Notes: generated by a model from the sequence alone, not told the origin. A DNA stretch of 32,000 bases from Okeania sp. (GCF_035285525.1 NZ_JAYKGW010000173.1:1-32000); one strand, 5' to 3'. Positions 6,821 to 28,919 are shown, counted from the first letter of the stretch. A program made the numbers and translations.

Positions 6821-7964
6821 CTATGATTGAATTATAAAATCTCTAGCCCCAGGTAGGGGAACATCTGTAAAAGTAGCAAACTTTCCACCATTACCAAAAC
6901 CATTAGCTCTACCATTAGGATTGTAATATAAATCTCCACTGGAAAAATCGTAAACAATTTCTGCACTGCTTCTAGCAACTTCATCCTTACTATCAACAAC
7001 TGCAAATTCTCTGATAACATTAAAACCTCTACCACTACGACTATTTAAACTGGTAAAAGTGGTTTTGTCCAGAACAATTTTGTCCTGGTTTAATACAAAA
7101 TCTGTGATAGTATCTACTCCTACATCATTGCGACGAAAACGCATATCTGTTTCATAAATAAGTTTATCTTTTCCTTTACCACCAACGAAAGTATCATTAC
7201 CACCTCCACCATTAATATCATCCCTCCCACTTTCACCTATTAATAAATCTCTTCCAGCACCACCAATTAAAGTATCATGATCTGAACCGCCATTAATTTC
7301 ATCATTACCTCTTCCACCATTGAGAGTATCTTTAACTCCTCCGCCTACAATAACTTCATTTTTTTAGTTCCTGAAAGTTTATCATTTCCAAAACTACCTG
7401 GAAGTAAATTTTCTGAATTTTCTACTAGCGCTTCTACACGAATATTGTCAAAAAAAACATCTCCAGTTACTCCACCTGAACTTATAAAATCTTCAAACTT
7501 CAAGTGAATTTATTCACCAATTGTGAATATAATTTAAATAGATTCCCATTTTCCAGTATCCTGTAAATCAGTAAAATCTTCAGCTCGGTTAATAGTATTT
7601 TGACTTGTTCCAGCAACCCATACATCTGCATTATTTAATTCATTTCCATATCCTACAAATCCACCAAAATCTGTTGCTACGCTTCCTGGTAATCCCAAAC
7701 TAAGATAATCAAAAGATAAACGATATATCCCAAAATTACTATTACTAAACAGAACCGTGAAGGAGTCTTTTGTATAAATATCTCCTCCGTTTCCAAAACC
7801 ACTAAATGAAATAACTTGGTCATTTTGTAGTGAAGTGGGTCATTAGTAATAAATCCTGTAAAAGAACCTCCAGATTTTCCAGTCCAACGAGATAAGTTTG
7901 ACTCAAAATTTTCAAAAAAGATTGTTTCAAAAGTAAAATTTTTAGCCATCAAGTTTTTCTTCAA
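6821..7964 (-). pseudogene. Decayed RTX-type calcium-binding repeat protein gene
   Basis: Hand translation gives MAKNFTFETIFFENFESNLSRWTGKSGGSFTGFITNDP in one frame. A frameshift near 7840 leads to PTSLQNDQVISFSGFGNGGDIY..FFDNIRVEA in a second frame, which has in-frame stops at 7534-7536 and 7510-7512. A second frameshift occurs in a T7 run at 7359-7365. The third frame reads GGGVKDTLNGGRGNDEINGGSDHDTLIGGAGRDLLIGESGRDDINGGGGNDTFVGGKGKD (GGxGxD nonapeptides) and continues into the listed 6821-7144 ORF. Confidence 0.8.
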
Positions 7965-12498: not shown

Positions 12499-12566
12499 GG
12501 AGATGGGGGGATGTGGAGATGGGGAGATGGGGAGATGGGGGGGATGGGGAGATGGGGGGATTGGGT
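12499..12566. repeat. Octamer tandem array (GGGGAGAT-like)
   Basis: ggagatggggggatgtggagatggggagatggggagatgggggggatggggagatgggggga, immediately downstream of the pentapeptide gene stop. The same unit occurs at 22128 and, inverted, at 16377. Confidence 0.9.
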
Positions 12567-12574
12567 AAGTCCTG

Positions 12575-13513
12575 TTAATAAAAAGAATTTGCGCAGTCGC
12601 GATCGCTAACCACCCCATTAGGTAGAATTGTATTGCACAATTCCATTGTTTCCCAGGAAATATTTTCCTGTTCAATTCCGGCAAAACTTGTGCCTCTTAA
12701 GTCTGTTCCTTGGAAATTAACACTTCTAATAGTAGTAGTCTCTCTGGGAAAAGATCTGACTGAAACTGTTTTGAGGGTACATTCATTAGCAGCAAAACAA
12801 GCTCTTTCCAGAAAAGCATTTTCTAGGTTAGTTTGTTCTAGAATAGCTCCTCCAAGATAGGTATCAGATAGGTTTGCTTGTTTTAAATTTGTCAATTTTA
12901 GATTAGTTCCTTGTAAGTTAGCTCCCTGTAAATTTGCTTTCTGAAGGTCAGCACCTTGTAAATTAGCTCCCTGCAAATTAACCCCTGTAAGTATTGCTGC
13001 CTTCAAATTACTGTTAGTGAAGTCAGTATTTGCTAGGTTTGCTCCTTCTAAATTTGCATAAGCTAAATTTGCATTCTGAAAATTGCCATAACTTATTTGG
13101 GCAGCTTCAAATTTAGCACCTTGAAGATTTGCCGACTCAAATTTAGCACCTCTCAGATTTGCTCCTTGTAAATTCGCTAACATTAAATCAGCATTTTCCA
13201 TGCTAGCATTTATGAGATTAGCCGTCCTGAAATCAGCATACATAAGTTTAGATTTTTGCCACTGAGTATTAGAACAGTTTGCTCCTTCAAAGTTAGTTCC
13301 TTTGCCATGAACTTTTTGTAGGTTTGCTCCCTCTAACTGAGAAAAATTTAAGTTGAGTCCTTGTATACTTACTCCTTCCAATTTACATCCTAAACACTCA
13401 TTACTCTCTAACAAATATTGGAAAGTAACTGGTTGAGGAGAATTTATGGCAGCGATCGCGCTGCCTAAACTGAGGAGTCCTGCTAGAGCTAATAGTAATA
13501 ATAAGTGTTTCAT
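12575..13513 (-). CDS. Secreted pentapeptide-repeat protein
   Basis: I place the start at ATG 13513, which gives MKHLLLLLALAGLLSLGSAIAA, a signal-peptide-like N-terminus. Long runs of A(N/D)LxG pentapeptides follow (ANLQGANLRGAKFESANLQGAKF...). The listed 422-aa ORF extends upstream only by reading through a heptamer array. Confidence 0.85.
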   Translation of the reverse strand: MKHLLLLLALAGLLSLGSAIAAINSPQPVTFQYLLESNECLGCKLEGVSIQGLNLNFSQLEGANLQKVHGKGTNFEGANCSNTQWQKSKLMYADFRTANLINASMENADLMLANLQGANLRGAKFESANLQGAKFEAAQISYGNFQNANLAYANLEGANLANTDFTNSNLKAAILTGVNLQGANLQGADLQKANLQGANLQGTNLKLTNLKQANLSDTYLGGAILEQTNLENAFLERACFAANECTLKTVSVRSFPRETTTIRSVNFQGTDLRGTSFAGIEQENISWETMELCNTILPNGVVSDRDCANSFY

Positions 13514-13640
13514 TGAACTAATCCTATTTTTACAGCGTTTTCGGTTGGCGATGATATCATGTACAGTAGCATCAGAGCATGTATAAAATTTTTGACTATT
13601 AAGACTTACCCAAAAAACAAAATTATACACCATCTCTCCC

Positions 13641-13733
13641 GTTCCCTGTTCTGTTCCGTGTTCCGTGTTCCGTGTTCCGTGTTCCGTGTTTCGTGTTCCC
13701 TGTTCTGTTTCGTGTTTCGTGTTCCCTGTTCCC
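13641..13733. repeat. Heptamer tandem array (GTTCCGT-like)
   Basis: gttccctgttctgttccgtgttccgtgttccgtgttccgtgttccgtgtttcgtgttccctgttctgtttcgtgtttcgtgttccctgttccc, between pgsC-like and the pentapeptide gene. Confidence 0.9.
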
Positions 13734-13740
13734 TTATTAA

Positions 13741-14748
13741 TTAAATAAATACCTGAAGTTGTTTGATATAAGTGGCTAAAATATTCAGAGTTATCGCCAC
13801 TAGGGCAACGAGACTTATATATTTTAAACCGCCTTTTTTCCAATATAACAAGGAATCATTTACCAGTGTAATCATAGCAATAACCACTAATAAATTTAAG
13901 CCTCGGAAGGGAACCAATGTCGGATTATATTGTAGTAACAATAACTCAACGCCCCAAACATAAACCACACTCATAAATAATACCAAACCATAACGATTAA
14001 GTCCGATAGTGAGACTATAGCGACAAATCAGCCAACTTAAACTTCCAACTAAAAGACATCCTAGCAAAAAAGTAACAGCACTTAGAGGTTCCATTAACAA
14101 AGCAGCAGCAGCAGGAAGAACAATATAACCCCCAGAGCGTACTGATGACCTCTGGTAAATCAAGTAACTTAAAACCAAGACTAAACCAAATTGCAGTAGG
14201 GGATAACTGAACTCAATATCTAATGTTTCTGCATAAGCAGGATGTACTATATTAAAATCTATATCTAACCAATACCAACCTAACCAATAAATTGTTGCTA
14301 CTATTCCCCCGGTAAATAGTGTAGTGATGCCAACACCTTGAACCACTCTCAACTGTTTTTGTTTCGTCCAACTGAAGGCAATGATAGCAGGAATTAAACT
14401 TCCTGTCATACCTTCCTCAGAGAATTGCACCCAACCCAAGTTGTCGTATAAGATGGCAAGGGGATAGACTAAGCAGAGAGACATGATAGCCAGAATATAC
14501 ATTGGTGTCCGAGGTTGTAACGATTTCAAATGGCTAAAATATCGTTGATAGAGAGAAAATAAGATAAAAGCCAAACCTATTAAGCTAATACCCCATATAG
14601 GGGATAATATAATTGTTACTACTAACAATCCTGGAACAATAACCCCTCCAGGAACTATGCCTTCATTATCTTTATAATAAATGGCTGCAAAAGCACCGAT
14701 GAGCAATGCTAAACGGGTAATTTCTGAGGTGTTGAGGAATTCAAACAT
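13741..14748 (-). CDS. PgsC/CapC-like polytopic membrane protein, apparently internally duplicated
   Basis: 335 aa and very hydrophobic. The N-terminal half has NEGIVPGGVIVPGLL, which resembles Bacillus CapC/PgsC EKTGIVPAGLVVPGYL. The second half repeats the theme (SGGYIVLPAAAALL). It overlaps the pgsB-like stop by 40 nt. Confidence 0.65.
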   Translation of the reverse strand: MFEFLNTSEITRLALLIGAFAAIYYKDNEGIVPGGVIVPGLLVVTIILSPIWGISLIGLAFILFSLYQRYFSHLKSLQPRTPMYILAIMSLCLVYPLAILYDNLGWVQFSEEGMTGSLIPAIIAFSWTKQKQLRVVQGVGITTLFTGGIVATIYWLGWYWLDIDFNIVHPAYAETLDIEFSYPLLQFGLVLVLSYLIYQRSSVRSGGYIVLPAAAALLMEPLSAVTFLLGCLLVGSLSWLICRYSLTIGLNRYGLVLFMSVVYVWGVELLLLQYNPTLVPFRGLNLLVVIAMITLVNDSLLYWKKGGLKYISLVALVAITLNILATYIKQLQVFI

Positions 14749-16016
14749 ACTTTCTGTTTTGCTTTTTTGTGTTTTGCTTTTTTGTGTTTTGCTTTTTTGT
14801 CTGTTTCTAAAATCGGACTTTGAACTAAAGTTTGGAATAAAGTCAAAAGTTTTTGTGCTTGAGGAGTATGGATGTTAACAGCTCCTACTAATAGAATATT
14901 TTTCTTCTCTATTGTTTGGGTAATTTGGGTGAGTAAACTGGTGGCAGGGGAATCTTTATAAACAGTTGAATCACCTAATAACAATAGACGTTCTGGGGTA
15001 GCAGTGAAAAACTTTTCTACTTCTGCTTCGCAACTTCCTATAGTCACAACTCGGTCAAAGTTCATGCTTTGGCTGAGTCGAGCAAATAAGTTGACTCGTG
15101 GTAGTCTATCAGAACGGTTGTTCAGTAAGACAACTTTGGCGTGTTGAGGATATTGGGCAAAAATTCGCTGGCAGAGTAATTGAAAACTTTCTCTATCGTT
15201 GACAGCAAATAAATTAGCCCAAATAATGTTAGAGTCTTTCCAGTTAATAGGTTCCAATTTCAATGCACTTTCATCGTTAAGAGTTTGCCACATAGCTCGC
15301 AACGCTCGTTTTCTAGGAACTTTTAATAGGTTGGCAACTTCCAGAGCGATCGCCACATTTTCTTCTATGGCAACTGCACTAAACCCTTTTAAATCTGTAG
15401 TTTTGATTTGACTAGAGTCTACAGCAATAAGTTTAGTTCCCCTCTTTTCTGCCTCAGTCTGGAGAATTTTGAGTAATTCCGGGTTGGACTCAGATGTAAT
15501 TAGCTTACCATTTCTGGGAATAGTGGCTGCTAGGGAATAGGCTATTTCTTCCAGAGTTTCTCCTAGATAGTCTGGATGATCGTAGCGAACATTGGTAATA
15601 ATTCCCAGATCAGAGCGCATGACTTTTTGTTCCAACCATTCTGCATAGACTGGGTTAATAGCCATACATTCCATAACCACAGCTTCTGCTCCTTGGCGAA
15701 AAAAACTCCGCATTACATCTACTTGCTCGTTAACGTTAGGATAACCTTTCCGCTCCCAAACAGATTCTTTACCGTTAGGATGAATAATATGGGCGGTACT
15801 ACCAGTAATTTTGCCAAAGGTTTTATAACCTGCTGCTTGCACAACTGCTGCTACATAACGGGTTACGGTTGATTTACCCCGAATCCCATTCACATGAACT
15901 CGATACAAAATTTGGTCTCGTTTTTGACGAAATTGCTGATAGCGAATTAGCAAGTATAGAAAATAGATACCTAAGCTAGCAAAGGTAACAAAGAAAGGTA
16001 TAGCCTCCTTAAACAT
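14709..16016 (-). CDS. pgsB: Poly-gamma-glutamate synthase PgsB/CapB-like (Mur-ligase family)
   Basis: It has an N-terminal TM helix. VHVNGIRGKSTVTRYVAAVVQAAGYKTFGKITGS and VMECMAINPVY match Bacillus PgsB (VNINGIRGKSTVTRL..GYKT.GKTTG, ECMAVNP). I prefer ATG 16016, which has GGAGGGAGG 10-20 nt upstream, over the TTG at 16028 used by the ORF track. Confidence 0.85.
   Translation of the reverse strand: MFKEAIPFFVTFASLGIYFLYLLIRYQQFRQKRDQILYRVHVNGIRGKSTVTRYVAAVVQAAGYKTFGKITGSTAHIIHPNGKESVWERKGYPNVNEQVDVMRSFFRQGAEAVVMECMAINPVYAEWLEQKVMRSDLGIITNVRYDHPDYLGETLEEIAYSLAATIPRNGKLITSESNPELLKILQTEAEKRGTKLIAVDSSQIKTTDLKGFSAVAIEENVAIALEVANLLKVPRKRALRAMWQTLNDESALKLEPINWKDSNIIWANLFAVNDRESFQLLCQRIFAQYPQHAKVVLLNNRSDRLPRVNLFARLSQSMNFDRVVTIGSCEAEVEKFFTATPERLLLLGDSTVYKDSPATSLLTQITQTIEKKNILLVGAVNIHTPQAQKLLTLFQTLVQSPILETDKKAKHKKAKHKKAKQKVCLNSSTPQKLPV
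14756..14800. repeat. 3 x 15-bp tandem repeat inside the 3' end of pgsB-like
   Basis: gttttgcttttttgt repeats three times exactly. On the minus strand it encodes KKAKHKKAKHKKAKQ. It sits 8 nt upstream of the pgsC-like ATG. Confidence 0.95.
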
Positions 16017-16279
16017 CTGAAATTTCAACCTCCCTCCTAATTTATGTATAAAGTTGGCTTCGCCCGGTTATTTTGGCTTATTAAATTCGACACACTGGTT
16101 TTTCCAATCTCCAGGACTTACGCAGCCACCTATAGTGTTTAAAACCCCATACGCAATAGTTTATATAGAAACCTTATGGTATCTTTACAAAGCTGTGTTT
16201 TTTTGCCTAAGTCAGGAGTCAACTCACCCCTAACCCCGACCGTGGAGGGGAAATAAGGAAAAAGCTAGAAAAATAGTCT

Positions 16280-16618
16280 TATAGTTATTCTGAATAAGAA
16301 TGAAACATTTTTTGAGCTGAAACCTTTTAACAGTAATAAATTATTGTCTCAGTCTAAACCAGAATGACTATATATTCACCATCTCCCCATCTCCCCATCT
16401 CACCATCTCACTATCTCACCATCTCTTTACCTATTTACCTATTTAATGCCAAACACTCTTAGGTCAGAACTAGCCACAGATCCTGATGTATTGTTACCAA
16501 AATAACGTTTACTTAGATCAACTTTTATAGTTATTCTGAATAAGAATGAAACATTTTTTGAGCTGAAACCCTTTGACAGCAATAAATTATTGTCTCAGTC
16601 TAAAACAGAATGACTATA
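16280..16618. repeat. Two 93-bp MITE-like direct repeats flanking an octamer array
   Basis: tatagttattctgaataagaatgaaacattttttgagctgaaacc.ttt.acag.aataaattattgtctcagtctaaa.cagaatgactata occurs at 16280-16372 and 16526-16618. Each unit has terminal inverted repeats TATAGTTATTCTG/CAGAATGACTATA. The CCATCTC(C/A) octamer array lies at 16377-16425. Confidence 0.9.
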
Positions 16619-16639
16619 GTCATTCCAGTACGGTTCCCT

Positions 16640-16735
16640 AAAAATCATGCATTGTAGGATTTTGGGCATTTCGAGGGGTAGAAAACAAAAGGAAGATTCT
16701 TCTGTACGGACGTTGCATCCAATGTCCCTACTCTT
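16640..16735 (+). repeat. Partial copy of the dispersed repeat family
   Basis: gattcttctgtacggacgttgcatccaatgtccctac matches copy A at 1045-1085. Confidence 0.7.
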
Positions 16736-16759
16736 CTATGATTCCCATTCCCATAATGA

Positions 16760-16840
16760 TTCTGACTTCTGGCTTCTGGCTTCTGGATTCTGGCTCCTGG
16801 CTCCTGGCTTCTGGCTCCTGGATTCTGGCTCCTGGCTTCT
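16760..16840. repeat. Heptamer tandem array (TTCTGGC/TCCTGGC)
   Basis: ttctgacttctggcttctggcttctggattctggctcctggctcctggcttctggctcctggattctggctcctggcttct. It runs up to the capA-like stop codon (16839-16841). Confidence 0.9.
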
Positions 16841-19202
16841 AGAACTTAGGCTGAAGAGCCATGAAAGTAAGATGGAGTTTAACTGTACCAGGCTCCCCTG
16901 ATAATCTTAAAAAGTCATGGCCGTGAGGAATCTGAAACTGAATCAGATTTTTCAACTCTAGAGGTTTTTCCCAACTGACACAAGCCAGGTCATCAAACAT
17001 GGCTATTCCTTTCCCTTTTTGGGGAGGATAGTGACGCAGCCAGAGCATTAAAGCACGGGGGTTATCTTTTTTAGGATTGACCACCTGTTCCAATTTCCGA
17101 TCTTTGGGCACAGATAAGTCTACCACGATGGGTTCCCAATCAAAAGTATGACCAGGGTGAGTAAAAATAATCTCATCTCCAAAAGCTTGTTCTCCTTCAC
17201 TGGCACGATAGCGGACTTTTAGTTGGATACTGCCTGCATTTTCCCCCTTTACATATCCAACTAGGGTCAAATCTTTCTTTGGGCGATCGCTTGCATCTCC
17301 AAATACCCGGATTCTTTCCCGAAACTGAGTTACGGCTATCTGATGATTTTTGGCCGAGCGCTCTAGACAAATTCCTGTGGTGCCTCTATGTGCCCCCTGA
17401 TGACAGGCAAAGGATGTCTTACCTTTCTGAGAGACTCCCCAACGATTAATATCTTGTACTTCTGAGTCTATGTCCCAATCTTCTACTTCGCCAAATATCA
17501 TTAAGTCTCTGCCCAAACTGATTTGGTAGATTTCATCTGTACTTGCTTGGACTTGGTATAGAGATGCTTCACTGGGGGCGATTGCTCGTAAATCTACTAA
17601 TGCCCATCCATTTTCATTTATCATAACAGGAACATCAAAACTGTATTTTTTGATACTAATATTAGATTTGTCTACTCCTGTGAGAGAAACCGAACCCCGA
17701 TTTAAATAAGGATAAACAAGGACTCCATCACGAGAAAATTCTCCTATTCTGCGGATAAAGCGATTTGCTAGGTCTCCTCCAATAATTTGGGGGCGATAAT
17801 CTTCTAAATAAATGGGTATTACTTGGAGTTTGGTCACTTCTTCTGACTGAACATCTACCAGAGCTACTAATTCCAGGAAGGTCTCCAAGCGGTCAGAGTC
17901 AAAAACTAAGTTGCCAAGGCTATAAAATAAGGGAACGCCATGACGAAACCCTAAACCTTGAGGCAGATGGGGATGATGTCCCACAATTAACCCTGCTCCA
18001 GCATTAGCAACTTTGTCCATCAAGTTTTCGACATAAGATGTGGGGGCAAAAGTATATTCAGTACCTGCGTGTAACTGGACAATAGGAAATCGCCCTTGGT
18101 TTTTTTCCTGGGCAATTAAGTTTTCTACCGTAGCTATATCCCGGAGGTCTGCTGCACCTCCCTGATTTTCAGTAGCTACAAACTGTAGAGGTTCTGGATA
18201 GCGATCGCCGGCAATGGAAGAAAAAGAAAATAGAGAATATTCTGTGTTTCCTAAGTTAAGGCGATAAGGTTCTTGAGCTGTAGTTGGAGTAAGTCCGGCA
18301 CCGCTGTAAGCTAGACCAATATGTTGTAAATTTTCGATAGTGGTAGTTAACCCAGATGCTAAATAATCCCAAAGGTGGTTATTTCCCAAGGCGACATAGT
18401 TAACCCCTAACTTGTAGAGTTGTTCGACTGATTCGGGGAGGGTGAAAAAACTGTATGGTTTAGCCCAATGGGGTGTTTTGGGGTGATCTAGAACTGGGGT
18501 TTCCAAATTTACGCTACGAAAGTCGCTGAAGTTATTCTGAAATAAAGGTTGTAAACCTTCTAGCACTTTAGCACTGCCATTTTGAGGATGGGAAGCTTGA
18601 ATTAGAGCATCAGGATTATTTGGAGGAATTTTATTCCGGGGAGTTTTCTCTTCTGGATCGAGAAACCGCCTACCCATTGCCACATCTCCTCCAAATAGAA
18701 ATCTAGTTTTTGATTCTGTCCGTTTTACCAAAGGAAGAGGTGGAACTTCCACTTGAGAGATTGTTAGAGGTAATGATAAAACTAGAGGAACAATTTCCCG
18801 ATCAAACTTAGGAGTATCAATTTTTAAAAGTTGGTTATGACGAGGTGCAGAGGGAAAGAAATACTCTCCCAAAATATTAGTAACTGTTTCTGTCTCTCCC
18901 AGACGAACCGGAATATTACTCAGGGGAGTATCTCCAGTTGCGACTATTCTGCCTTTTACTTGAATGGGAGTGTTCTGATACTGACGCACTAGCTCCATTT
19001 CTTCAGCTACCAAGGGGTTGAGAAATTCTTGGAGAGACCAAGCTTGGGCTGGTGCGGGATAAAGATATAGGGTTAGGAAAAAGAATATTGCTAGACAAAT
19101 AATTTTTTTTCCTAATACAACGCTTCCGGTTGTTAAGAGGTACATCCATCGTGGGCAAGATGCTCGCACTACAAGATTTTGATTGTTTACCCTGTATATC
19201 AT
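16839..19202 (-). CDS. capA: CapA/PgsA-family metallophosphoesterase-fold protein with long N- and C-terminal extensions
   Basis: 787 aa. The CapA core spans about residues 168-470: FLFGGDVAMGRRF, VNLETPV, VALGNNHLWDY, IVQLHAGTEY, LIVGHHPHLPQG, YSLGNLVFD. The N-terminus is signal/TM-like (an alternative start is ATG 19145, MYLLTTGSVVLGKKIICLAIFFFLTLYLYPAPAQA). About 320 aa of C-terminal sequence has no motif I recognise. Confidence 0.85.
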   Translation of the reverse strand: MIYRVNNQNLVVRASCPRWMYLLTTGSVVLGKKIICLAIFFFLTLYLYPAPAQAWSLQEFLNPLVAEEMELVRQYQNTPIQVKGRIVATGDTPLSNIPVRLGETETVTNILGEYFFPSAPRHNQLLKIDTPKFDREIVPLVLSLPLTISQVEVPPLPLVKRTESKTRFLFGGDVAMGRRFLDPEEKTPRNKIPPNNPDALIQASHPQNGSAKVLEGLQPLFQNNFSDFRSVNLETPVLDHPKTPHWAKPYSFFTLPESVEQLYKLGVNYVALGNNHLWDYLASGLTTTIENLQHIGLAYSGAGLTPTTAQEPYRLNLGNTEYSLFSFSSIAGDRYPEPLQFVATENQGGAADLRDIATVENLIAQEKNQGRFPIVQLHAGTEYTFAPTSYVENLMDKVANAGAGLIVGHHPHLPQGLGFRHGVPLFYSLGNLVFDSDRLETFLELVALVDVQSEEVTKLQVIPIYLEDYRPQIIGGDLANRFIRRIGEFSRDGVLVYPYLNRGSVSLTGVDKSNISIKKYSFDVPVMINENGWALVDLRAIAPSEASLYQVQASTDEIYQISLGRDLMIFGEVEDWDIDSEVQDINRWGVSQKGKTSFACHQGAHRGTTGICLERSAKNHQIAVTQFRERIRVFGDASDRPKKDLTLVGYVKGENAGSIQLKVRYRASEGEQAFGDEIIFTHPGHTFDWEPIVVDLSVPKDRKLEQVVNPKKDNPRALMLWLRHYPPQKGKGIAMFDDLACVSWEKPLELKNLIQFQIPHGHDFLRLSGEPGTVKLHLTFMALQPKF

Positions 19203-19744: not shown

Positions 19745-21856
19745 CTAAGATGCAGAACATTGTTTCATAACTTTCAAAGACATTCCCCCTAAGTTATTAC
19801 TAGGTTTAGAGTCTTCTATATAGAACTCCATTTCTGTTGTGTCATCAAGACTGAAGAAAACTGGTTCGGGAGCATTTTGGAAAGCTTGACTAGAGCTTTC
19901 ATAACGACAAGCACCGTATTTGGGATGATCGCAATTACCGTTAACTACTTTGTTGTAGGGAGAACGGAAATAATAACGAGTTTCCCAACCCAAGTCACAA
20001 TCATTGCCCTTAGCATTGCATCCACGTTCTATACCGCTACCGCTCCAGGCATCATAGTTACCACCCTCATTGGCAGCAATAACTGTTACTTCGTATTCAC
20101 CAGCAGAGAAACTTTGGAGAACAGGGTTATCTTTATTGTTAACCTGAGCATCAATATTGATAATTTCTGTAGTTTCAGCACAGCCTTCCTCATTACCAAA
20201 GAGAACTGTAGCCTCTGCTCCCTGAGCAAGTTTCACAGTAGCGCTTCCGTCAGTGGAAGTAGTAGGAACATATCCCTCTGGAATAACTTCCCGAACTGTG
20301 TATGTACCAGCAACTAAATTTTCAAAGCGATATTTACCATCAGCATCGGTAACACTTACTGGTTCTTTGGTGTCGAGTTTGCCGTTATTGTTCAAATCCA
20401 GATAAATAGAAACTTTTTCTATGACTGGTTCTAGTTGAGCATTTTTTCTAGCTTCTTCTGGGGATTGCAGATTTTTAAACACGGCTAGCAGTTCATCGAG
20501 ATTGGTAAATATGACTGCATTGGGGTCAATAATTTTTAAGTCAGATAAGGAAGAACCTGTTCCTACGCCAAAAGAAGAAAGGTTACTGCCGCGCTGGCGT
20601 AGTTCTTGTACTTCGTCGTCAAAACTTCCCCCATGAGTAGATTTACCATCAGAAAGGAAAATTACGTTACCTTCTCCATTAGCAGTGCCTAACTCTGACA
20701 TTGTTTTCAGAACTTCCTGGAGAGCTGCTTCAAAGTTAGTGTTGACTCCAACATCACCATAGAGTTTATAGCGTTTTTGGAAGGTTCCTAAAACTTCTTC
20801 TACATCTGGCGTACCGCTACTATCAGCATCACTAGCAGGATTAGTTGCTAGTTGTGTTCCATTGGTAACGGGGTTGCCATCAGCAGTAGCACCACCGTCA
20901 GCAAAATAGATTAGACTAATCCGTGCATTTTTGCCAAAGCCTTTATCAATCAATTGTTGATTCAGGGCTTGAAATCCTGCTATTTCTGCATCTAAGATAG
21001 TATCTGCTTTACCATCCTTGTTAATATCACCGACTTTAGTCTCACCAACAAACTTTTTGTTGACGGTACTACCGGAAATATCTATTACAAAAAAGACATC
21101 AGGGTTATCTCCCTTAATCAGGGTTGCGTTGCGTTTACCATCTCCGTTAGTATCGAGCCATTTGATACCTGCGATGACACCTGTTGGTACTGGTTTAGGT
21201 ACTGGTTTAGGTACTGGTTTAGGTTCTGGAGGCTTAACACTACCCGGCAAACCTCGCACACTAATTAGATCGAAGCCTGGAGAACAACCACCTTGATCTA
21301 CACCAACAACTTTAACGTATTTAACTGGTTTTTTATATTTAATAGAAGCCAAATCTAATTGAACGATACCCATTTCGTTCACTCTACCCAGATAGGTGAA
21401 CTCAGAACCATCCGCACTCACATAAATATCTGCATTTTCATTAGCAGAACTCCGGCGGTCAAAACTTTGAATGAAAATGTCGTTACCAGGACTATCAACT
21501 ATCACTTCATCCTCGAAACTGACAATTACATAGGAGTCTTTTGGCAAAGAGAGCCATGTCACCAGAGGATTATTACCTACGACTGGTTCTGCTGGTGGAT
21601 GACCAAGAAAGACATCAGGTCTAACAGATGCCATGCAGTACCACCCAGTTTTAGGTAGACCATAATTTCTCGGTGGACCGCCGTAAGGACCAGGAATCGC
21701 CCCCTTGCCGCCATCATAAAATTCCACTAATTTGTCAGCCCAACCATTGCCAGTAGCAGCAATTACTGGATTTGGATTAATACTAAAGCAGGTTAATGAT
21801 AGAACCACTAGCATTAGCCAACCTAAAATTCGTTTCATTTGAGATTTTTCCTCCAT
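19745..21856 (-). CDS. Secreted VWA-domain protein with SdrD-B/Cna-B-like domains
   Basis: It has a signal peptide (MKRILGWLMLVVLSLTCFSINPNPVIAA) and a PKPVPKPVPKPVP linker encoded by a 3x12-bp repeat at 21186-21221. GIKWLDTNGDGKRN and YLDLNNNGKLDTKEPVSVTDADGKYRFENLVAGTYTVREV are SdrD B-type repeats. VFFVIDISGST is a VWA MIDAS DxSxS motif. The C-terminal domain is Cys-rich. Confidence 0.85.
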   Translation of the reverse strand: MEEKSQMKRILGWLMLVVLSLTCFSINPNPVIAATGNGWADKLVEFYDGGKGAIPGPYGGPPRNYGLPKTGWYCMASVRPDVFLGHPPAEPVVGNNPLVTWLSLPKDSYVIVSFEDEVIVDSPGNDIFIQSFDRRSSANENADIYVSADGSEFTYLGRVNEMGIVQLDLASIKYKKPVKYVKVVGVDQGGCSPGFDLISVRGLPGSVKPPEPKPVPKPVPKPVPTGVIAGIKWLDTNGDGKRNATLIKGDNPDVFFVIDISGSTVNKKFVGETKVGDINKDGKADTILDAEIAGFQALNQQLIDKGFGKNARISLIYFADGGATADGNPVTNGTQLATNPASDADSSGTPDVEEVLGTFQKRYKLYGDVGVNTNFEAALQEVLKTMSELGTANGEGNVIFLSDGKSTHGGSFDDEVQELRQRGSNLSSFGVGTGSSLSDLKIIDPNAVIFTNLDELLAVFKNLQSPEEARKNAQLEPVIEKVSIYLDLNNNGKLDTKEPVSVTDADGKYRFENLVAGTYTVREVIPEGYVPTTSTDGSATVKLAQGAEATVLFGNEEGCAETTEIINIDAQVNNKDNPVLQSFSAGEYEVTVIAANEGGNYDAWSGSGIERGCNAKGNDCDLGWETRYYFRSPYNKVVNGNCDHPKYGACRYESSSQAFQNAPEPVFFSLDDTTEMEFYIEDSKPSNNLGGMSLKVMKQCSAS

Positions 21857-24428: not shown

Positions 24429-27400
24429 ATGAATCCCAGTCCCGAACCACAAATTAATTATTTCCGAGAATGGACTAATAGCTGTGTTGATGACCAATTA
24501 ATTAAGCTCAATGTTGTCCCTTTAGAAGGACAAGAACCTTATGAATTTTTATTTTATTCTGATGCTATTCCGCGACGCAATGATGGTCGAGTAACGAGCG
24601 AAATATTAAGGCGATATGAACATATTGAGGAAGGTGGATGGTGGTGTTCTGGAATTGATTTATTGTCCGGAGAGGAGGACCTTTGGGGTTGTTTTAAGCC
24701 TAGTCAACCACGTCATAGTTACGACGAAAAAAAGTTAATTAAATACGAACATCCTCCGAAGACTCCTACGAGTTTATTTGCTCTGAAAATTCCTCTACAT
24801 TTATGGCAGAAAATAGCTGGTCGTTATCAATTAGAAATTCTTCGGGAAGATATCGATCATAATCAACCAGATTTGGGTTTTTGGCAGTGGTTTATGAAGC
24901 ATCCTGAGATTCCTTTATGTATTACTGAAGGAGCGAAAAAAGCGGGTGCTTTACTAACAGCATCTTATGTGGCTATTGCTTTACCAGGAGTATTTGGGGG
25001 ATATCGAGTTTTGAGAGATGAATATGGGAATCGTATTGGCAAAGCAAATTTAATTCCTCAGTTAGAAAAGTTGATTAATAATCATCGAGAAGTTTATATT
25101 GTATTTGACCAAGATACTAAACCGAAAACTATTAAAAATGTTAATGCTGCGATTAGAAAAACTGGATATTTACTGGCTAGAAAAGGATGTAATGTTAAAG
25201 TAGTTTCCTGGAATCCAGAGTTAGGAAAGGGAGTTGATGATTTAATCGCTAATCAGGGAAAAAATGTTTTTGATGAAGTTTATGAAAAGGCTTTACTTTT
25301 AGAACTTTGGAAAGCTAAATCATTTATTCGTCTCACATATCCTGTAAATTTGAGGGTTAATAGTCGTTATCTTTCAGAAGAGAATATTTTTAGTTCTTTA
25401 GGCAATAAGAATTTACAGAAGTTAGATAATCTGGATTTAGCTTATAGTACAAATTTTCCAGCCAAACTTGTAGGGATAAAATCTGCTAAAGGAACTGGAA
25501 AAACTAAATTATTAGAAAAAATAGTTGCGGAAGCTGTAGCTAGGAATAAAAAAGTTTTAGTTATCGGTCATCGGGTACAGTTAGTACAAGAATTATGTCA
25601 ACGTTTTGGATTGAAATATATTACAGAAGCCAATTCAGAATCTCCAGATAATTTATTAGGTTTAGGTTTATGTATTGACTCTTTACATCCTAATTCCCAA
25701 GCAAATTTTAATCCAGAAACTTGGTCAGATGGAGTAGTAATTATTGATGAAATTGAACAGGTAATTTGGCATGGTTTAAATTCTAATACTTGTCGGCAAA
25801 ATAGAGTAGAAATTCTCAGATGTTTTAAAACATTAATGCAAAATGTTTTAGGAGGAGTTGGTCAAGTATTTATAGCTGATTCTGACTTAAGCGATATTTC
25901 CATAGATTATTTAGCAGCTTTAGCAGGAATAAAAGTAGAACCTTTTATTATTCAAAATGATTGGTTGCCTGGAGAAAAAGAAGCTTGGCAAATTTTTAAT
26001 TATCCAGAAACAACTCCCAAAAAATTAATAGCAGATTTACACAAACATATTTCTGAAGGTGGCAAACCAATGGTTTGTTTATCGGCGCAAAAATTAACAA
26101 GTAAATGGGGAACTCGTGCTTTGGAAGCTTATCTGAAAAAACAGTTTCCCCAGTTCAAAATATTGAGAATAGATTCGGAATCTTTAGCTGAACCAAATCA
26201 TCCTGCTTATGGTTGTATTAAATCATTAAATCAAGTCTTACCAACATACGATATTGTGTTAGCTTCTCCCTCAATTGAAACTGGAGTTAGTGTCGATATT
26301 CAAGGGCATTTTACTTCAGTTTGGGCAATTGCTCAGGGGGTGCAGGGAGCAACTTCTGTTTGTCAATCTTTGGGGAGAGTTCGTGAGAATATTCCGAGAT
26401 ATTTATGGGTAGCAAATTCTGGTTTTAATAAGGTCGGTAATGGTTCGACTTCTATCACTTCTTTGCTCAATTCTGAAGAACGTTTGACTCAACTAAATAT
26501 TAGATTATTACAACAATCTGATTTTGATAGTTTGGACGATTTAGAAGTAAATTTTCAACCAGAATCTTTTTTGTGTTGGGCAAAAATGGCGGTACGTTTT
26601 AATGCGGGAATGAATAAATATCGAGAATCTGTTTTAGAATTTTTACAAAAAGAAGGGCATCAGATTAAAGAAATTTCTACAGAAGTTTTATCCGATAATT
26701 CAGAAGCAGAAAAATCATCGGAAACTCCGATAGAAGTTAATAATTTCCAGGAAGTTATAGACACCGTAATTAAACAAAATTATCAGAGAGAATGTGAGGC
26801 GATCGCTACGGCGAAAAATATTAGTTTATCTGAGTATGAGAAACTCAAAAAAAGATTATCAAAACCAATTCAAAAACAACGGGAACAACGGAAATTTCAA
26901 TTAATGTTACGTTATAATATTCCTATAACTACTGAATTAGTTGAAAAAGATGATGAAGGTTGGTACGAACAGTTAGAATTACATTATTTTCTGACAGTAG
27001 GACGACCATATTTAGGAGCGCGAGATAAGGAAGTTGCCAAAAAATTGTTGGATTTAGGTAAAGGTAATATTTTTATTCCTGATTTTAATGATTGTTTATT
27101 AGGGGCAATTATTGGGGTAATGGAATTATTAAAAATCCCCTCGTTATTGAAGGATAAAAACCGGGAGTTGAAAAATATAGATCCAGATTTACAGTTGTTA
27201 GGAAAAACAGCTTTGGCAAATAGAAATGAAATTAAAACTATATTAGGAATAGGGTTAGCTGCTAGTTCGAGTCCGATTATAATTGTGCGACGTTTTTTAG
27301 AGAAAATTGGTTATAGTTTAGAATTTTTACGAACAGAAACTCATCAGAAAAAACGATTGAGAATTTATCGGATTGTTAATGCTGATGATGGTAGATTTGA

Positions 27401-27455
27401 AATATTTCAGCAATGGTTAAGTGGGGGGAAATTAGAGTCCAGTAGGGTGTGTTAG
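24429..27455 (+). CDS. CyRepA-type replication protein (N-terminal Toprim-like/DUF3854 domain + P-loop helicase-like domain)
   Basis: 1008 aa. The N-terminus has EWTNSCVDDQLIKLNV..GGWWCSGIDL..FKPSQPR..LIKYEHPPK. Toprim-like motifs are ITEGAKKAGALL and IVFDQDTKPKT..GKGVDDLI. Walker A is SAKGTGKTK (about 25480-25508) and Walker B is VVIIDEIEQ (about 25735-25760). This architecture matches cyanobacterial plasmid Rep proteins annotated as the CyRepA1 family. Confidence 0.8.
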   Translation: MNPSPEPQINYFREWTNSCVDDQLIKLNVVPLEGQEPYEFLFYSDAIPRRNDGRVTSEILRRYEHIEEGGWWCSGIDLLSGEEDLWGCFKPSQPRHSYDEKKLIKYEHPPKTPTSLFALKIPLHLWQKIAGRYQLEILREDIDHNQPDLGFWQWFMKHPEIPLCITEGAKKAGALLTASYVAIALPGVFGGYRVLRDEYGNRIGKANLIPQLEKLINNHREVYIVFDQDTKPKTIKNVNAAIRKTGYLLARKGCNVKVVSWNPELGKGVDDLIANQGKNVFDEVYEKALLLELWKAKSFIRLTYPVNLRVNSRYLSEENIFSSLGNKNLQKLDNLDLAYSTNFPAKLVGIKSAKGTGKTKLLEKIVAEAVARNKKVLVIGHRVQLVQELCQRFGLKYITEANSESPDNLLGLGLCIDSLHPNSQANFNPETWSDGVVIIDEIEQVIWHGLNSNTCRQNRVEILRCFKTLMQNVLGGVGQVFIADSDLSDISIDYLAALAGIKVEPFIIQNDWLPGEKEAWQIFNYPETTPKKLIADLHKHISEGGKPMVCLSAQKLTSKWGTRALEAYLKKQFPQFKILRIDSESLAEPNHPAYGCIKSLNQVLPTYDIVLASPSIETGVSVDIQGHFTSVWAIAQGVQGATSVCQSLGRVRENIPRYLWVANSGFNKVGNGSTSITSLLNSEERLTQLNIRLLQQSDFDSLDDLEVNFQPESFLCWAKMAVRFNAGMNKYRESVLEFLQKEGHQIKEISTEVLSDNSEAEKSSETPIEVNNFQEVIDTVIKQNYQRECEAIATAKNISLSEYEKLKKRLSKPIQKQREQRKFQLMLRYNIPITTELVEKDDEGWYEQLELHYFLTVGRPYLGARDKEVAKKLLDLGKGNIFIPDFNDCLLGAIIGVMELLKIPSLLKDKNRELKNIDPDLQLLGKTALANRNEIKTILGIGLAASSSPIIIVRRFLEKIGYSLEFLRTETHQKKRLRIYRIVNADDGRFEIFQQWLSGGKLESSRVC

Positions 27456-27584
27456 GCGCTAGCCGTAACGCACCGCTATTAAATTAATTGAAAAGTCATA
27501 TAAGGAATTAATAATCGAGTAATCTGTAGGGTAGTTTAAGCATTCCTAAAAGATGGTGCGTTACGCTCCGCTAACACACCCTAC
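27442..27584. repeat. Large imperfect inverted repeat (cyanobacterial GTAGGGTG..CGTAACGCACC palindromic element)
   Basis: The left arm GTAGGGTGTGTTAGGCGCTAGCCGTAACGCACC (27442-27474) contains the last 4 codons and the stop of the Rep gene. The right arm GGTGCGTTACGCTCCGCTAACACACCCTAC lies at 27555-27584. The outer 14 nt and inner 11 nt are perfectly complementary. Confidence 0.85.
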
Positions 27585-27718
27585 TAGCTATAACTTTTGG
27601 AATTGATTCGCTTTAATTTTATATTTTTCATGGCTGACTCAGGGTATGCTATCCTTATTTTATAACTAGATGAAAGTTAAGAGCAAATTCTAAATATATA
27701 TTAGCAGAGGTAAAATCA

Positions 27719-28912: not shown

Positions 28913-28919
28913 TACCAAT

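What the first reader, a model, noticed from the sequence alone, without database searches (positions are those of the whole stretch)
12575..19202. Cyanobacterial poly-gamma-glutamate-like cluster with non-canonical architecture (extended CapA, PgsB, duplicated PgsC, pentapeptide-repeat protein)
Seen: the minus strand encodes four products in order. First is a 787-aa CapA-family protein. Second is a PgsB/CapB-like Mur-ligase-family protein with VNGIRGKSTVTR and ECMAINP. Third is a 335-aa membrane protein whose two halves both resemble the ~150-aa Bacillus PgsC (GIVPGGVIVPGLL and GGYIVLPAAAALL). Fourth is a signal-peptide-bearing pentapeptide-repeat protein. Established: Bacillus makes poly-gamma-glutamate with pgsB-C-A-E, encoding proteins of roughly 390, 150, 380 and 55 aa. 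Four features differ here. The order is A-B-C. CapA carries a ~165-aa N-terminal and a ~320-aa C-terminal extension. PgsC looks tandemly duplicated and fused. No pgsE or depolymerase is evident. Inference: the product may be a poly-gamma-glutamate-like or other amide-linked extracellular polymer with a modified export or anchoring component. The CapA extension and the pentapeptide protein are unexplained.
Basis: partly seen in the sequence, partly recalled or inferred. Interest (0 to 1): 0.65.

Follow-up and report, generated by a model that had tools for sequence, protein, structure and literature searches.

The report
Cyanobacterial polyglutamate-synthase-like cluster, fused PgsC
A marine filamentous cyanobacterium carries a conserved four-gene block that looks like the Bacillus poly-gamma-glutamate synthase, but with a doubled membrane subunit, a long multi-domain CapA and a secreted pentapeptide-repeat partner; the core recurs across cyanobacteria and I found no paper on it.

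Summary
The minus strand of 12575-19202 encodes four products. They are a 787-aa CapA-family protein, a PgsB that passes NCBI's equivalog cut-off, a 335-aa membrane protein, and a signal-peptide pentapeptide-repeat protein. Each half of the membrane protein alone passes the Pfam CapC threshold. The pentapeptide protein probably starts at 13513.

The unusual features are family traits rather than oddities of this window. pgsB followed by fused pgsC lies in 33 of 33 related loci from many cyanobacterial orders and one Sericytochromatia genome. A separate ~320-aa fused PgsC family occurs in probable Saccharimonadales. The long CapA has an N-terminal beta-sandwich, an MslH-like metallophosphatase core and a C-terminal CBM-like jelly roll. 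That architecture is widespread and stands alone in two non-cyanobacterial genomes examined.

The window-specific feature is the block capA-pgsB-pgsC2-pentapeptide. It is shared only with Okeania, Moorena and one Microcoleaceae genome. Most other loci carry a HlyD-type gene instead, with a PilZ domain shown in one.

Best reading: an inner-membrane, ATP-dependent synthase makes a poly-gamma-glutamate-like polyamide for the periplasm or cell surface (confidence about 0.6). The product is not shown. This is a new variant of a known kind, of moderate interest.

The parts
16839..19202 (-). Long CapA-family protein (787 aa). It has a signal peptide or TM anchor, an N-terminal beta-sandwich, a metallophosphatase-fold core and a C-terminal beta-rich region ending in a jelly roll.
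   Evidence: ORF. PGA_cap E 3e-46. AF2 model pLDDT 91.9, pTM 0.90. The best PDB fold match is the lasso-peptide epimerase MslH, E 5e-21.
18747..18965 (-). CapA aa 80-152: CarboxypepD_reg-like beta-sandwich.
   Evidence: Weak Pfam hit in the window protein (E 0.0085). PF13620 is precomputed in most homologues. The A4 profile matches the SusC N-terminal domain 9hfj at E 4.5e-7. Strands in the model.
17898..18698 (-). CapA aa 169-435: PGA_cap / calcineurin-like core. Invariant residues are D173, N274-N275-H276, D279, H378 and H409-H410-H412.
   Evidence: The MslH segments NNHAMD and GHGPH align with the profile segments NNHvyD and gHHpH. Their assignment to the MslH His88/Asp91 and His295 catalytic residues (PMC10406935) is inferred from the motifs.
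16848..17414 (-). CapA aa ~597-785: C-terminal beta jelly roll resembling carbohydrate-binding modules.
   Evidence: Foldseek hits to CBM16 (2zey/2zex, E ~5e-6, TM 0.62 on the target) plus CBM4-2 and CBM22 entries. The region assignment is inferred: these ~145-aa all-beta modules fit the strand-only region 597-785 of the model, but the output gives no query coordinates. W588, W689, D737 and W744 are conserved in the alignment.
16029..16838 (.). 810-bp capA-pgsB spacer. It holds 7- and 8-nt tandem arrays and two 94-nt repeat copies (16279-16372 and 16525-16618, 96% identical).
14709..16028 (-). PgsB (439 aa from the TTG; probably 435 aa from the ATG at 16016). It has an N-terminal hydrophobic anchor, the P-loop GIRGKS and a lysine-rich C-terminal tail encoded by a 15-nt tandem repeat. 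Its 3' end overlaps pgsC by 40 nt.
   Evidence: TIGR04012 323.9 bits against a cut-off of 222.7. Mur_ligase_M. Tandem repeat at 14751-14800. The tail is conserved in the four window-type loci.
14266..14748 (-). Fused PgsC, N-terminal copy (aa 1-161).
   Evidence: PF14102 45.3 bits, profile positions 1-117 of 119. Canonical ~140-155-aa PgsC proteins match this half of the family profile.
13741..14265 (-). Fused PgsC, C-terminal copy (aa 162-335, plus the stop codon).
   Evidence: PF14102 29.4 bits, profile positions 3-105 of 119. The helix pattern repeats in the AF2 model, pLDDT 83.
13641..13732 (.). Heptamer tandem array (GTTCCGT, 13.7 copies) in the pgsC-pentapeptide spacer.
12575..13513 (-). 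Secreted pentapeptide-repeat protein (312 aa, with a signal peptide and a Cys-containing C-terminal region).
   Evidence: Pfam Pentapeptide E 3e-46. Start position and signal-peptide sequence. Orthologues of 69-71% identity lie directly after pgsC2 in Okeania, Moorena and Microcoleaceae MO_207.

Best explanation
The block capA-pgsB-pgsC2-pentapeptide encodes a poly-gamma-glutamate-synthase-like machine adapted to a cell with two membranes.

- PgsB is held at the inner membrane by its N-terminal helix. It is the ATP-dependent amide ligase.
- The fused PgsC is a single chain of about eight transmembrane helices that stands in for two PgsC subunits. It forms the membrane part of the synthase and probably the exit path for the chain.
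- The long CapA is exported or anchored in the periplasm. There its MslH-like metal centre acts on the growing or released chain, through elongation support, epimerisation or release. Its CBM-like end tethers it to a wall or sheath glycan.
- The secreted pentapeptide-repeat beta-helix is a periplasmic accessory of unknown role.

The product is most likely a gamma-linked polyglutamate, or a close polyamide relative, delivered to the periplasm or cell surface. There it would hold water and cations.

Shown: gene content, domain identities, duplication, conservation and synteny. Inferred: the product, the topology, the role of CapA and the role of the pentapeptide protein.
For: PgsB and PgsC:
- PgsB passes the NCBIfam equivalog cut-off over 367 of 380 profile positions.
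- Both PgsC halves pass the Pfam cut-off.
- pgsB and pgsC2 overlap by 40 nt here and in Okeania.
- The two genes are adjacent in 33 of 33 related loci where the contig allows.

CapA:
- A long CapA sits beside pgsBC2 in three different arrangements: upstream, downstream of a HlyD gene, or divergent. This holds across Okeania/Moorena, Microcoleus vaginatus and picocyanobacteria, although these CapAs are only 24-26% identical to the window's. That argues for a functional link rather than inherited adjacency.
- The metal and catalytic motifs of CapA are invariant in 48 homologues.

The four-gene block:
- It is conserved in four genomes. Proteins encoded beside the window's block (VWA703, ABC-class ATPase) and upstream of the Okeania block (racemase, SDF, SBP) gave no tblastn hit in the other window-type loci.
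- In Moorena the tblastn matches to CapA and PgsB are only about 30 nt apart.

Sister loci:
- They carry HlyD-family genes; the one scanned also has a PilZ domain.
- They also carry a weakly NlpC/P60-like secreted protein. Both fit export and trimming of a gamma-glutamyl polymer.
- Saccharimonadales-type fused-PgsC clusters carry pgsB, CHAP, capA and NlpC/P60.
Against: - No product chemistry was obtained, and I found no experimental paper on any cyanobacterial pgsBC.
- The fused PgsC scores 28.4 bits against the PgsC equivalog model, whose cut-off is 96.45.
- No pgsE, CapD/GGT or PgdS was found in the window.
- An 810-bp repeat-filled spacer separates capA from pgsB.
- The window's CapA subfamily lay away from pgsBC in the two non-cyanobacterial genomes checked.
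- The pentapeptide gene is linked to the cluster only within one fairly close clade.
- No outer-membrane or HlyD-type export gene is present in the window.
Confidence: 0.6

Rival explanations
1. Only pgsB-pgsC2 form the machine. capA and the pentapeptide gene are neighbours by common descent in one clade and act independently. CapA would be a stand-alone periplasmic metallo-enzyme, as in Myxococcota.
For: - The long CapAs most similar to the window's (about 40% identity) lay away from pgsBC in the two genomes checked, Pyxidicoccus and one other.
- An 810-bp spacer with MITE-like repeats separates capA from pgsB.
- The pentapeptide gene is linked in only 4 related loci.
- Twelve loci carry pgsBC2 with no CapA nearby.
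- By its title, PMC6029982 reports PGA production without pgsA.
Against: - Long CapAs of a different subfamily also sit next to pgsBC2 in Microcoleus vaginatus and picocyanobacteria, in other orientations. This is recurrent, independent linkage.
- Proteins encoded beside the block gave no hit in the other three window-type loci, while the block itself is kept.
- The capA-pgsB gap is about 30 nt in Moorena.
Confidence: 0.2
2. The system does not release free polyglutamate. It builds gamma-glutamyl chains on, or together with, a glycan, giving a wall- or sheath-bound glycopolymer comparable to the haloarchaeal glutaminylglycan.
For: - CapA has a CBM-like jelly roll.
- CapB is reported as ubiquitous in Halobacteria, with a suggested role in glutaminylglycan biosynthesis (PMC11915815).
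- No depolymerase or release enzyme is in the window.
Against: - No glycosyltransferase lies in or next to the block.
- CBM-like folds bind many ligands.
- The same CapA architecture exists without pgsBC nearby.
Confidence: 0.12
3. PgsB/PgsC2 polymerise a different substrate, such as another acidic amino acid or a mixed polyamide, so the product is not polyglutamate.
For: - The fused PgsC is far from the PgsC equivalog model (28.4 bits against 96.45).
- The cyanobacterial family is distinct: only 127 representative clusters reached E 1e-3 with its profile.
Against: - PgsB clears the equivalog threshold by 100 bits.
- A glutamate racemase-family gene, an SDF-family carrier and a solute-binding protein lie beside the Okeania cluster. 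This is not conserved in the other window-type loci.
Confidence: 0.08

Closest known systems
Bacillus subtilis / B. anthracis PgsBCA(E) = CapBCA(E) poly-gamma-glutamate synthase
   Same: - A PgsB amide ligase of the same equivalog family.
- CapC-family membrane component.
- CapA-family (PGA_cap) protein.
- pgsB immediately followed by pgsC.
   Different: - PgsC is a tandem fusion (335 aa against about 150).
- CapA is 787 aa, with an extra N-terminal beta-sandwich and a C-terminal CBM-like jelly roll.
- The gene order is A-B-C.
- No pgsE/capE, capD or pgdS was found.
- The host is a diderm.
- A secreted pentapeptide-repeat gene is attached.
Cyanobacterial pgsB-pgsC2 loci with a HlyD-family partner (Xenococcaceae, Chroococcidiopsidaceae, Halothece/Dactylococcopsis, Scytonematopsis, Thermoleptolyngbya, Microcoleus vaginatus, freshwater picocyanobacteria; loci L002-L035)
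   Same: An orthologous PgsB (52-58% identity) and fused PgsC (37-51% identity), adjacent and in the same order.
   Different: - Those loci carry a HlyD-family gene of about 380-600 aa. In L002 it has a PilZ domain, an Alg44-like layout by my own recollection.
- They also carry either a ~330-aa protein with a lipoprotein-like N-terminus and no known family, or a long CapA of another subfamily.
- The window type lacks both and has the pentapeptide gene instead.
Fused ~320-aa PgsC of probable Saccharimonadales (loci L038, L039)
   Same: A tandem double CapC in one chain next to pgsB and capA. The cyanobacterial profile aligns along nearly the whole length of the representative of this family's cluster (P0172, profile positions 9-300).
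   Different: - The order is C2-B-CHAP-A.
- CapA is short (432 aa).
- NlpC/P60 and CHAP genes are present.
- The family matches the cyanobacterial profile only weakly (about 110-115 bits against about 500).
MslH lasso-peptide C-terminal Trp epimerase (PDB 8gq9/8itg)
   Same: The closest solved structure to the CapA core. The GNNHxxD and GHxPH motifs are shared.
   Different: - NF038314 scores 45.5 bits against a cut-off of 700.
- MslH is a soluble 440-aa enzyme acting on a ribosomal peptide.
- The window protein is exported and carries two extra beta domains.

Membership tests
PgsBCA(E)/CapBCA(E) poly-gamma-glutamate synthase | PgsB/CapB ATP-dependent amide ligase (TIGR04012 equivalog) | tested here: met
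   323.9 bits against a cut-off of 222.7, aa 19-390 on profile positions 7-373 of 380. The P-loop GIRGKS is present.
PgsBCA(E)/CapBCA(E) poly-gamma-glutamate synthase | PgsC/CapC small membrane subunit (~150 aa; PF14102 / TIGR04011) | tested here: inconclusive
   The Pfam domain is met twice (45.3 and 29.4 bits against a cut-off of 27). The NCBIfam equivalog is not met (28.4 against 96.45). The protein is a 335-aa fusion, not a ~150-aa subunit.
PgsBCA(E)/CapBCA(E) poly-gamma-glutamate synthase | PgsA/CapA (PGA_cap, PF09587) encoded with B and C | tested here: met
   158.3 bits against a cut-off of 27. The gene is adjacent in the window, Okeania and Moorena. The architecture is extended.
PgsBCA(E)/CapBCA(E) poly-gamma-glutamate synthase | Small PgsE/CapE peptide downstream (accessory) | tested here: not met
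   No plausible small membrane ORF on the coding strand in the two spacers examined. There is also no conserved small ORF family among the loci; the clustering used ORFs of at least 90 aa, so this point is weak.
PgsBCA(E)/CapBCA(E) poly-gamma-glutamate synthase | Gene order B-C-A(-E) | tested here: not met
   The order is A-B-C-pentapeptide.
PgsBCA(E)/CapBCA(E) poly-gamma-glutamate synthase | Product is gamma-linked polyglutamate | not testable with these tools
   This needs polymer isolation and chemistry.
Folylpolyglutamate synthase / Mur ligases / cyanophycin synthetase (alternatives for the ligase) | Score above the family cut-off | tested here: not met
   folC 52 bits against 162.65. murC 29.6 against 335. 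murE 21.5 against 257. No CphA model was listed.
PilZ-HlyD (Alg44-like) c-di-GMP-gated polymer export | PilZ plus membrane-fusion protein encoded in the cluster | tested here: not met
   tblastn with the L002 PilZ-HlyD protein found nothing in the window or in the three window-type loci, but found 25 other loci. PilZ and HlyD_3 are confirmed for the L002 protein only.
Pentapeptide-repeat proteins (PF00805) | Tandem A(D/N)LXX repeats above the Pfam cut-off | tested here: met
   155 bits against 20.2, in 7 stretches. The nearest NCBIfam model is penta_Alr5209, 123.5 bits against a cut-off of 125.
MslH-type peptide epimerase | NF038314 equivalog score; conserved His/Asp dyads | tested here: inconclusive
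   The equivalog is not met (45.5 bits against 700). The fold match is strong (E 5e-21) and the GNNHxxD and GHxPH motifs align. Activity is unknown.

The most novel reading that the evidence does not exclude
Cyanobacteria as a phylum, including Sericytochromatia, would possess an unrecognised secretion pathway for a polyglutamate-type polyamide, built on PgsB plus a single-chain pseudo-dimeric PgsC. In most lineages an Alg44-like PilZ-membrane-fusion protein would gate export by c-di-GMP. In the Okeania/Moorena/window clade that adaptor has been replaced by a long CBM-bearing CapA and a periplasmic pentapeptide beta-helix, which would then be a structural part of a polymer export or anchoring apparatus. 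That would be the first assigned role of this kind for a pentapeptide-repeat protein.
Probability: 0.3. Interest if true: 0.75.

Novelty: new variant of a known kind. Interest (0 to 1): 0.5.

Why it matters
- **Distribution of the pathway.** Poly-gamma-glutamate is treated in the papers retrieved as mainly a Bacillus product. One recent survey found CapB only in Gammaproteobacteria, Bacilli, Synergistota, Halobacteria, a few Methanosarcinales and Korarchaeota, and did not list cyanobacteria (PMC11915815). A conserved pgsB-pgsC pair across marine mat, hypersaline, desert-crust and freshwater picoplankton cyanobacteria would add a non-polysaccharide, nitrogen-rich polyanion to cyanobacterial envelopes and exopolymers. 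That bears on desiccation and salt tolerance, metal binding, aggregation and nitrogen budgets.
- **Architecture of the synthase.** The single-chain double PgsC suggests that the working unit of the unsolved PgsBC synthase contains two PgsC copies. It also offers a simpler target for structure determination.
- **Regulation.** The PilZ-HlyD partner seen in a sister locus gives a testable link between c-di-GMP and polyamide export.

Tried and rejected
- BLASTP of the two PgsC halves against each other was not significant (E 23). The duplication rests on profile evidence instead and on the repeated helix pattern.
- Foldseek of the PgsC2 model against the PDB gave no meaningful match (best E 0.3, TM about 0.2). 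Sequence searches found no solved PgsB or PgsC. The subunit stoichiometry of the canonical complex could therefore not be checked. PMC7490850 has no dimer or stoichiometry data.
- I suspected from its motifs that the ~330-aa partner of sister loci (alignment A2) was a PghP- or FGase-like zinc hydrolase. Neither the PDB profile search nor Pfam supports this, so I dropped the idea as untested.
- The 252-aa picocyanobacterial partner (alignment A3) gave only weak NlpC/P60 or cysteine-protease hints.
- A glutamate racemase-family gene, an SDF-family carrier and a solute-binding protein lie next to the Okeania cluster. They gave no hit in the other window-type loci, so I did not use them as evidence for the window.
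- The VWA/SdrD-like 703-aa protein upstream and the ABC-class ATPase downstream gave no hit in any relative and were excluded from the system.
- Rfam found no RNA element in or around the cluster.
- The promoter and terminator scans were at or below shuffle expectation and uninformative.
- Look-ups of P0001 and P0059 found no contig.
- Eight literature searches found no paper on cyanobacterial pgsBC or on fused PgsC. Six addressed that question directly. The other two addressed PgsBCA structure and MslH.

Full report
**1. Observation**

The minus strand between 12575 and 19202 carries four ORFs exactly as described. They are 787 aa (16839-19202), 439 aa (14709-16028), 335 aa (13741-14748) and 422 aa (12575-13843).

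Profile searches identify them as follows.
- The 787-aa protein has a PGA_cap domain at aa 169-435 (E 3e-46).
- The 439-aa protein scores 323.9 bits against TIGR04012 poly_gGlu_PgsB, whose curated cut-off is 222.7. Its next best families are folC at 52 bits (cut-off 162.65) and Mur ligases at 30 bits or less.
- The 335-aa protein matches Caps_synth_CapC in two stretches.
- The 422-aa ORF has pentapeptide repeats (E 3e-46).

Three start codons need a note.
- The pentapeptide gene most likely starts at the ATG at 13513. This gives 312 aa beginning MKHLLLLLALAGLLSLGSAIA, a typical signal peptide. It matches the 309-aa Okeania orthologue. The longer ORF would overlap pgsC and run through a heptamer repeat array.
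- PgsB probably starts at the ATG at 16016, behind GGAGGGAGG.
- The first 27 residues of CapA are modelled with low confidence and may not be translated.

**2. The duplicated PgsC**

Scanned separately, aa 1-161 score 45.3 bits and aa 162-335 score 29.4 bits against PF14102 (gathering cut-off 27). The halves cover profile positions 1-117 and 3-105 of 119.

Direct BLASTP of the halves is not significant. hhalign of the two half-alignments from 24 family members aligns them in register over 91 columns at E 0.013.

The AlphaFold2 model has mean pLDDT 83.3 and pTM 0.82. It shows the same succession of helices twice: 8-29, 38-48, 50-70, 81-104, 119-129 and 132-160, then 184-201, 210-219, 221-244, 252-274, 285-301 and 307-334.

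I take the tandem duplication as established at the domain level. An even number of membrane spans per half would put both halves in the same orientation. That topology is inferred, not tested.

No solved structure resembles the model. No PgsB or PgsC structure was found by sequence in the PDB copy.

**3. How widespread the arrangement is**

The fused protein has 34 close clusters, all about 330 aa, in the 5.8-billion-protein collection. The named ones come from Okeania, Moorena, Microcoleaceae and Xenococcaceae.

A scan of one genome per GTDB species found 32 loci. They come from:
- Microcoleaceae, Okeania and Moorena producens 3L;
- Xenococcaceae and Chroococcidiopsidaceae;
- Dactylococcopsis, Halothece, Scytonematopsis, Thermoleptolyngbya, Microcoleus vaginatus, Geitlerinema and Leptolyngbyaceae;
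- freshwater Synechococcus, Cyanobium and Vulcanococcus;
- one Sericytochromatia genome.

Three MAGs carry non-cyanobacterial names (Tatlockia, Chitinophaga pinensis, Asaia bogorensis). Their gene content is the same as that of cyanobacterial loci, so I treat those names as doubtful.

Using tblastn and ORF clustering, the partner genes are:
- pgsB directly upstream of the fused pgsC in 33 of 33 loci where the contig allows;
- a HlyD-family gene in 25 loci;
- a long CapA in 15 loci;
- a ~330-aa protein with no Pfam family in 12 loci;
- a ~250-aa secreted protein in 10 picocyanobacterial loci;
- the pentapeptide gene in only 4 loci (window, L004, L005, L006).

The HlyD-family protein of L002 has a PilZ domain (29.8 bits against a cut-off of 22.5) plus HlyD_3. 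The ~570-600-aa homologues in several other loci align from about residue 7-16, so they probably share the PilZ domain. This was not scanned.

Those four pentapeptide loci all lack a HlyD partner. Of the five other loci without a HlyD hit, three are short or truncated contigs. Two (L025, L032) have 10 kb of sequence downstream of pgsC2.

An exhaustive HMM search of 1.84 billion cluster representatives found only 127 with E at or below 1e-3. These include:
- many other full-length proteins of about 320-350 aa;
- a few longer ones;
- canonical proteins of about 140-155 aa, which match only the N-half of the profile.

One 320-aa family lies in contigs of 1.1-1.3 Mb. Its only informative source name is Candidatus Saccharimonadales. 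Its gene order is pgsC2-pgsB-CHAP-capA, with an NlpC/P60 gene nearby.

Fusion of PgsC is therefore recurrent and not specific to cyanobacteria.

**4. The long CapA**

The model is confident (pLDDT 91.9, pTM 0.90). Its layout is:
- a hydrophobic helix at aa 28-47, followed by AQA;
- a beta-sandwich at aa 80-152;
- an alpha/beta core at aa 165-435;
- a beta-rich region at aa 443-566;
- a jelly roll at aa 597-785.

Fold and profile matches support this reading.
- Foldseek puts MslH, a Ca-dependent peptide epimerase with a calcineurin-like fold, first (E 5e-21).
- Foldseek also returns CBM16, CBM4-2 and CBM22 modules (E about 5e-6, TM 0.62 on the target). I assign these to the C-terminal jelly roll by size and fold; the output gives no query coordinates.
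- The family profile aligns the MslH segments NNHAMD and GHGPH with the window's N274-N275-H276...D279 and H409-H410-H412. The N-terminal domain aligns with the SusC N-terminal CarboxypepD_reg-like domain.
- These core residues are invariant in 48 homologues.
- PMC10406935 assigns catalysis in MslH to the His88/Asp91 and His295/Asp11 dyads. That the window protein keeps equivalents is inferred from the motif alignment.

The whole architecture occurs at about 40% identity and 90% coverage in Nitrosomonas, Ramlibacter, Methylococcaceae, Pyxidicoccus and Pseudoalteromonas. It also occurs, more distantly, in a haloarchaeon. In Pyxidicoccus and in one other genome it had no pgsB or pgsC within 8 kb.

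The window's CapA is closer to these proteins (536-568 bits) than to the long CapAs next to pgsBC2 in Microcoleus vaginatus or picocyanobacteria (24-26% identity, 150-188 bits). Two different long-CapA subfamilies have thus ended up beside pgsBC2, in different orientations. I read this as recurrent functional recruitment. It also means that the extension is not a special adaptation of this cluster.

**5. The pentapeptide gene and the limits of the unit**

Orthologues of 69-71% identity follow pgsC2 in Okeania SIO2C9, Moorena producens 3L and Microcoleaceae MO_207.

The window's neighbours are a VWA/SdrD-like 703-aa protein and an ABC-class ATPase. Okeania's upstream neighbours are a racemase-family gene, an SDF carrier and a solute-binding protein. 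None of these gave a tblastn hit in the other window-type loci. The four-gene block therefore appears to travel as a unit.

These genomes are related (76-81% PgsC identity), so the linkage of the pentapeptide gene is suggestive, not proven. Its mature form is mildly acidic (pI about 5). Its role is unknown.

The PgsB of these four loci, and only these, ends in a lysine-rich tail. In the window the tail is encoded by a 15-nt repeat.

**6. Mechanism**

Shown:
- an equivalog-grade PgsB overlapping by 40 nt with a double CapC membrane protein;
- an exported CapA-family protein with intact metal and catalytic motifs and a CBM-like module;
- a secreted beta-helix repeat protein;
- phylum-wide conservation of the B-C2 core.

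Inferred:
- PgsB ligates glutamate through the gamma-carboxyl at the inner face of the membrane, and the PgsC pseudo-dimer completes the synthase and conducts the chain outward;
- CapA then acts on the chain in the periplasm, and the product stays in the periplasm or reaches the surface by a route not encoded here.

In sister clades the HlyD-type partner, with PilZ shown for L002, points to export across the outer membrane through a TolC-like duct. By analogy with Alg44 (from my own knowledge), that export could be controlled by c-di-GMP.

Many carriers live in hypersaline, marine-mat or desert-crust habitats. This fits a water- and cation-holding polyanion, but it is an inference.

**7. Comparison and novelty**

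The system works like PgsBCA and meets the ligase and CapA criteria. It fails or only partly meets four others:
- a separate ~150-aa PgsC matching the equivalog model;
- the B-C-A gene order;
- the presence of PgsE;
- an associated degrading or anchoring enzyme.

The CapsuleFinder study reported PGA-type loci in most phyla but did not describe these features (PMC5542703). A 2025 survey of Mur-domain proteins lists the taxa with CapB and does not include cyanobacteria (PMC11915815). Six literature searches aimed at this question found nothing on cyanobacterial pgsBC or fused PgsC.

Some of these proteins already carry the database names 'PgsC/CapC' or 'CapA family protein'. I therefore rate the finding a new variant of a known kind. 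It is real, conserved and untested by experiment. Two of its 'odd' features, the long CapA and the fused PgsC, turn out to be common outside this window.

**8. Verdict**

- Confidence in a polyglutamate-type synthase is 0.6.
- Interest is 0.5.

Noticed in passing
L002:5544-7292 and homologues in 25 loci (for example L007:12105-13838, L017:11039-12754): A HlyD-family protein is encoded next to pgsB-pgsC2 in most cyanobacterial loci. In L002 it has an N-terminal PilZ domain (29.8 bits against a cut-off of 22.5) and HlyD_3. That is an Alg44-like layout suggesting c-di-GMP-controlled export. It is absent from the window-type loci.
   Followed up: partly
L002:4510-5508 and 11 other loci (alignment A2): A conserved ~330-aa protein sits between pgsC2 and the HlyD-family gene. 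It has a signal or lipoprotein-like N-terminus and the invariant motifs PHI..D, GAHR.ANG, HGF and H.E. It has no Pfam family and no PDB sequence match.
   Followed up: partly
L020:10978-11736 and 9 other picocyanobacterial loci (alignment A3): A ~250-aa secreted protein with invariant Cys and His lies between pgsC2 and the HlyD-like gene. It gives only weak NlpC/P60 or cysteine-protease-fold hits (E 0.002-0.016). It is a possible gamma-glutamyl hydrolase.
   Followed up: partly
L038:8001-14020, L039:1441-7433: A separate ~320-aa fused PgsC family lies in contigs of 1.1-1.3 Mb, probably Saccharimonadales. The cluster is pgsC2-pgsB-CHAP-capA(432 aa), with an NlpC/P60 gene nearby and mobile-element genes (resolvase, T5orf172) in the flanks.
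   Followed up: partly
window 16279-16372 and 16525-16618: Two 94-nt copies, 96% identical, of an AT-rich element lie in the capA-pgsB spacer. I read the ends as imperfectly inverted (TATAGTtATTCTG ... CAGAATGACTATA), which looks like a miniature transposable element. The repeat finder reported no inverted repeats of at least 20 nt. There are no further copies in the window.
   Followed up: partly
window 12499-12565, 13641-13732, 16376-16445, 16760-16840: Short tandem arrays of 7-8-nt units fill the intergenic gaps of the cluster. One makes the mechanical ORF of the pentapeptide gene look 110 codons too long.
   Followed up: yes
window 14751-14800 (PgsB C-terminus): A 15-nt tandem repeat (3.3 copies) encodes a KKAKH-type lysine-rich tail on PgsB. 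Similar tails of varying length occur in Okeania, Moorena and Microcoleaceae MO_207, but not in the other cyanobacterial PgsBs examined.
   Followed up: partly
L001:889-4907 (Okeania SIO2C9): An Asp/Glu racemase-family gene, an SDF-family carrier gene and a solute-binding protein with a PG_binding_1 domain lie just upstream of capA in Okeania. This suggests glutamate supply. None of the three gave a tblastn hit in the window, Moorena or Microcoleaceae MO_207.
   Followed up: partly
window 6945-7042: ARAGORN calls a 98-nt tRNA-Ala(TGC) on the minus strand inside a 107-aa ORF. Rfam reports no tRNA at gathering threshold anywhere in the window, so the call is doubtful.
   Followed up: no
window 24429-30008: A DUF3854/ResIII 1008-aa protein is followed by a weak GmrSD_N-like protein (25.8 bits, below the 33.2 cut-off) and an unassigned 362-aa ORF, in a low-GC stretch. 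This looks like a mobile or defence island unrelated to the cluster.
   Followed up: no
window 19745-21856: A 703-aa secreted protein with VWA and SdrD_B/SpaA-type domains and a PKPV repeat linker lies directly upstream of capA on the same strand. It gave no tblastn hit in any related locus.
   Followed up: partly
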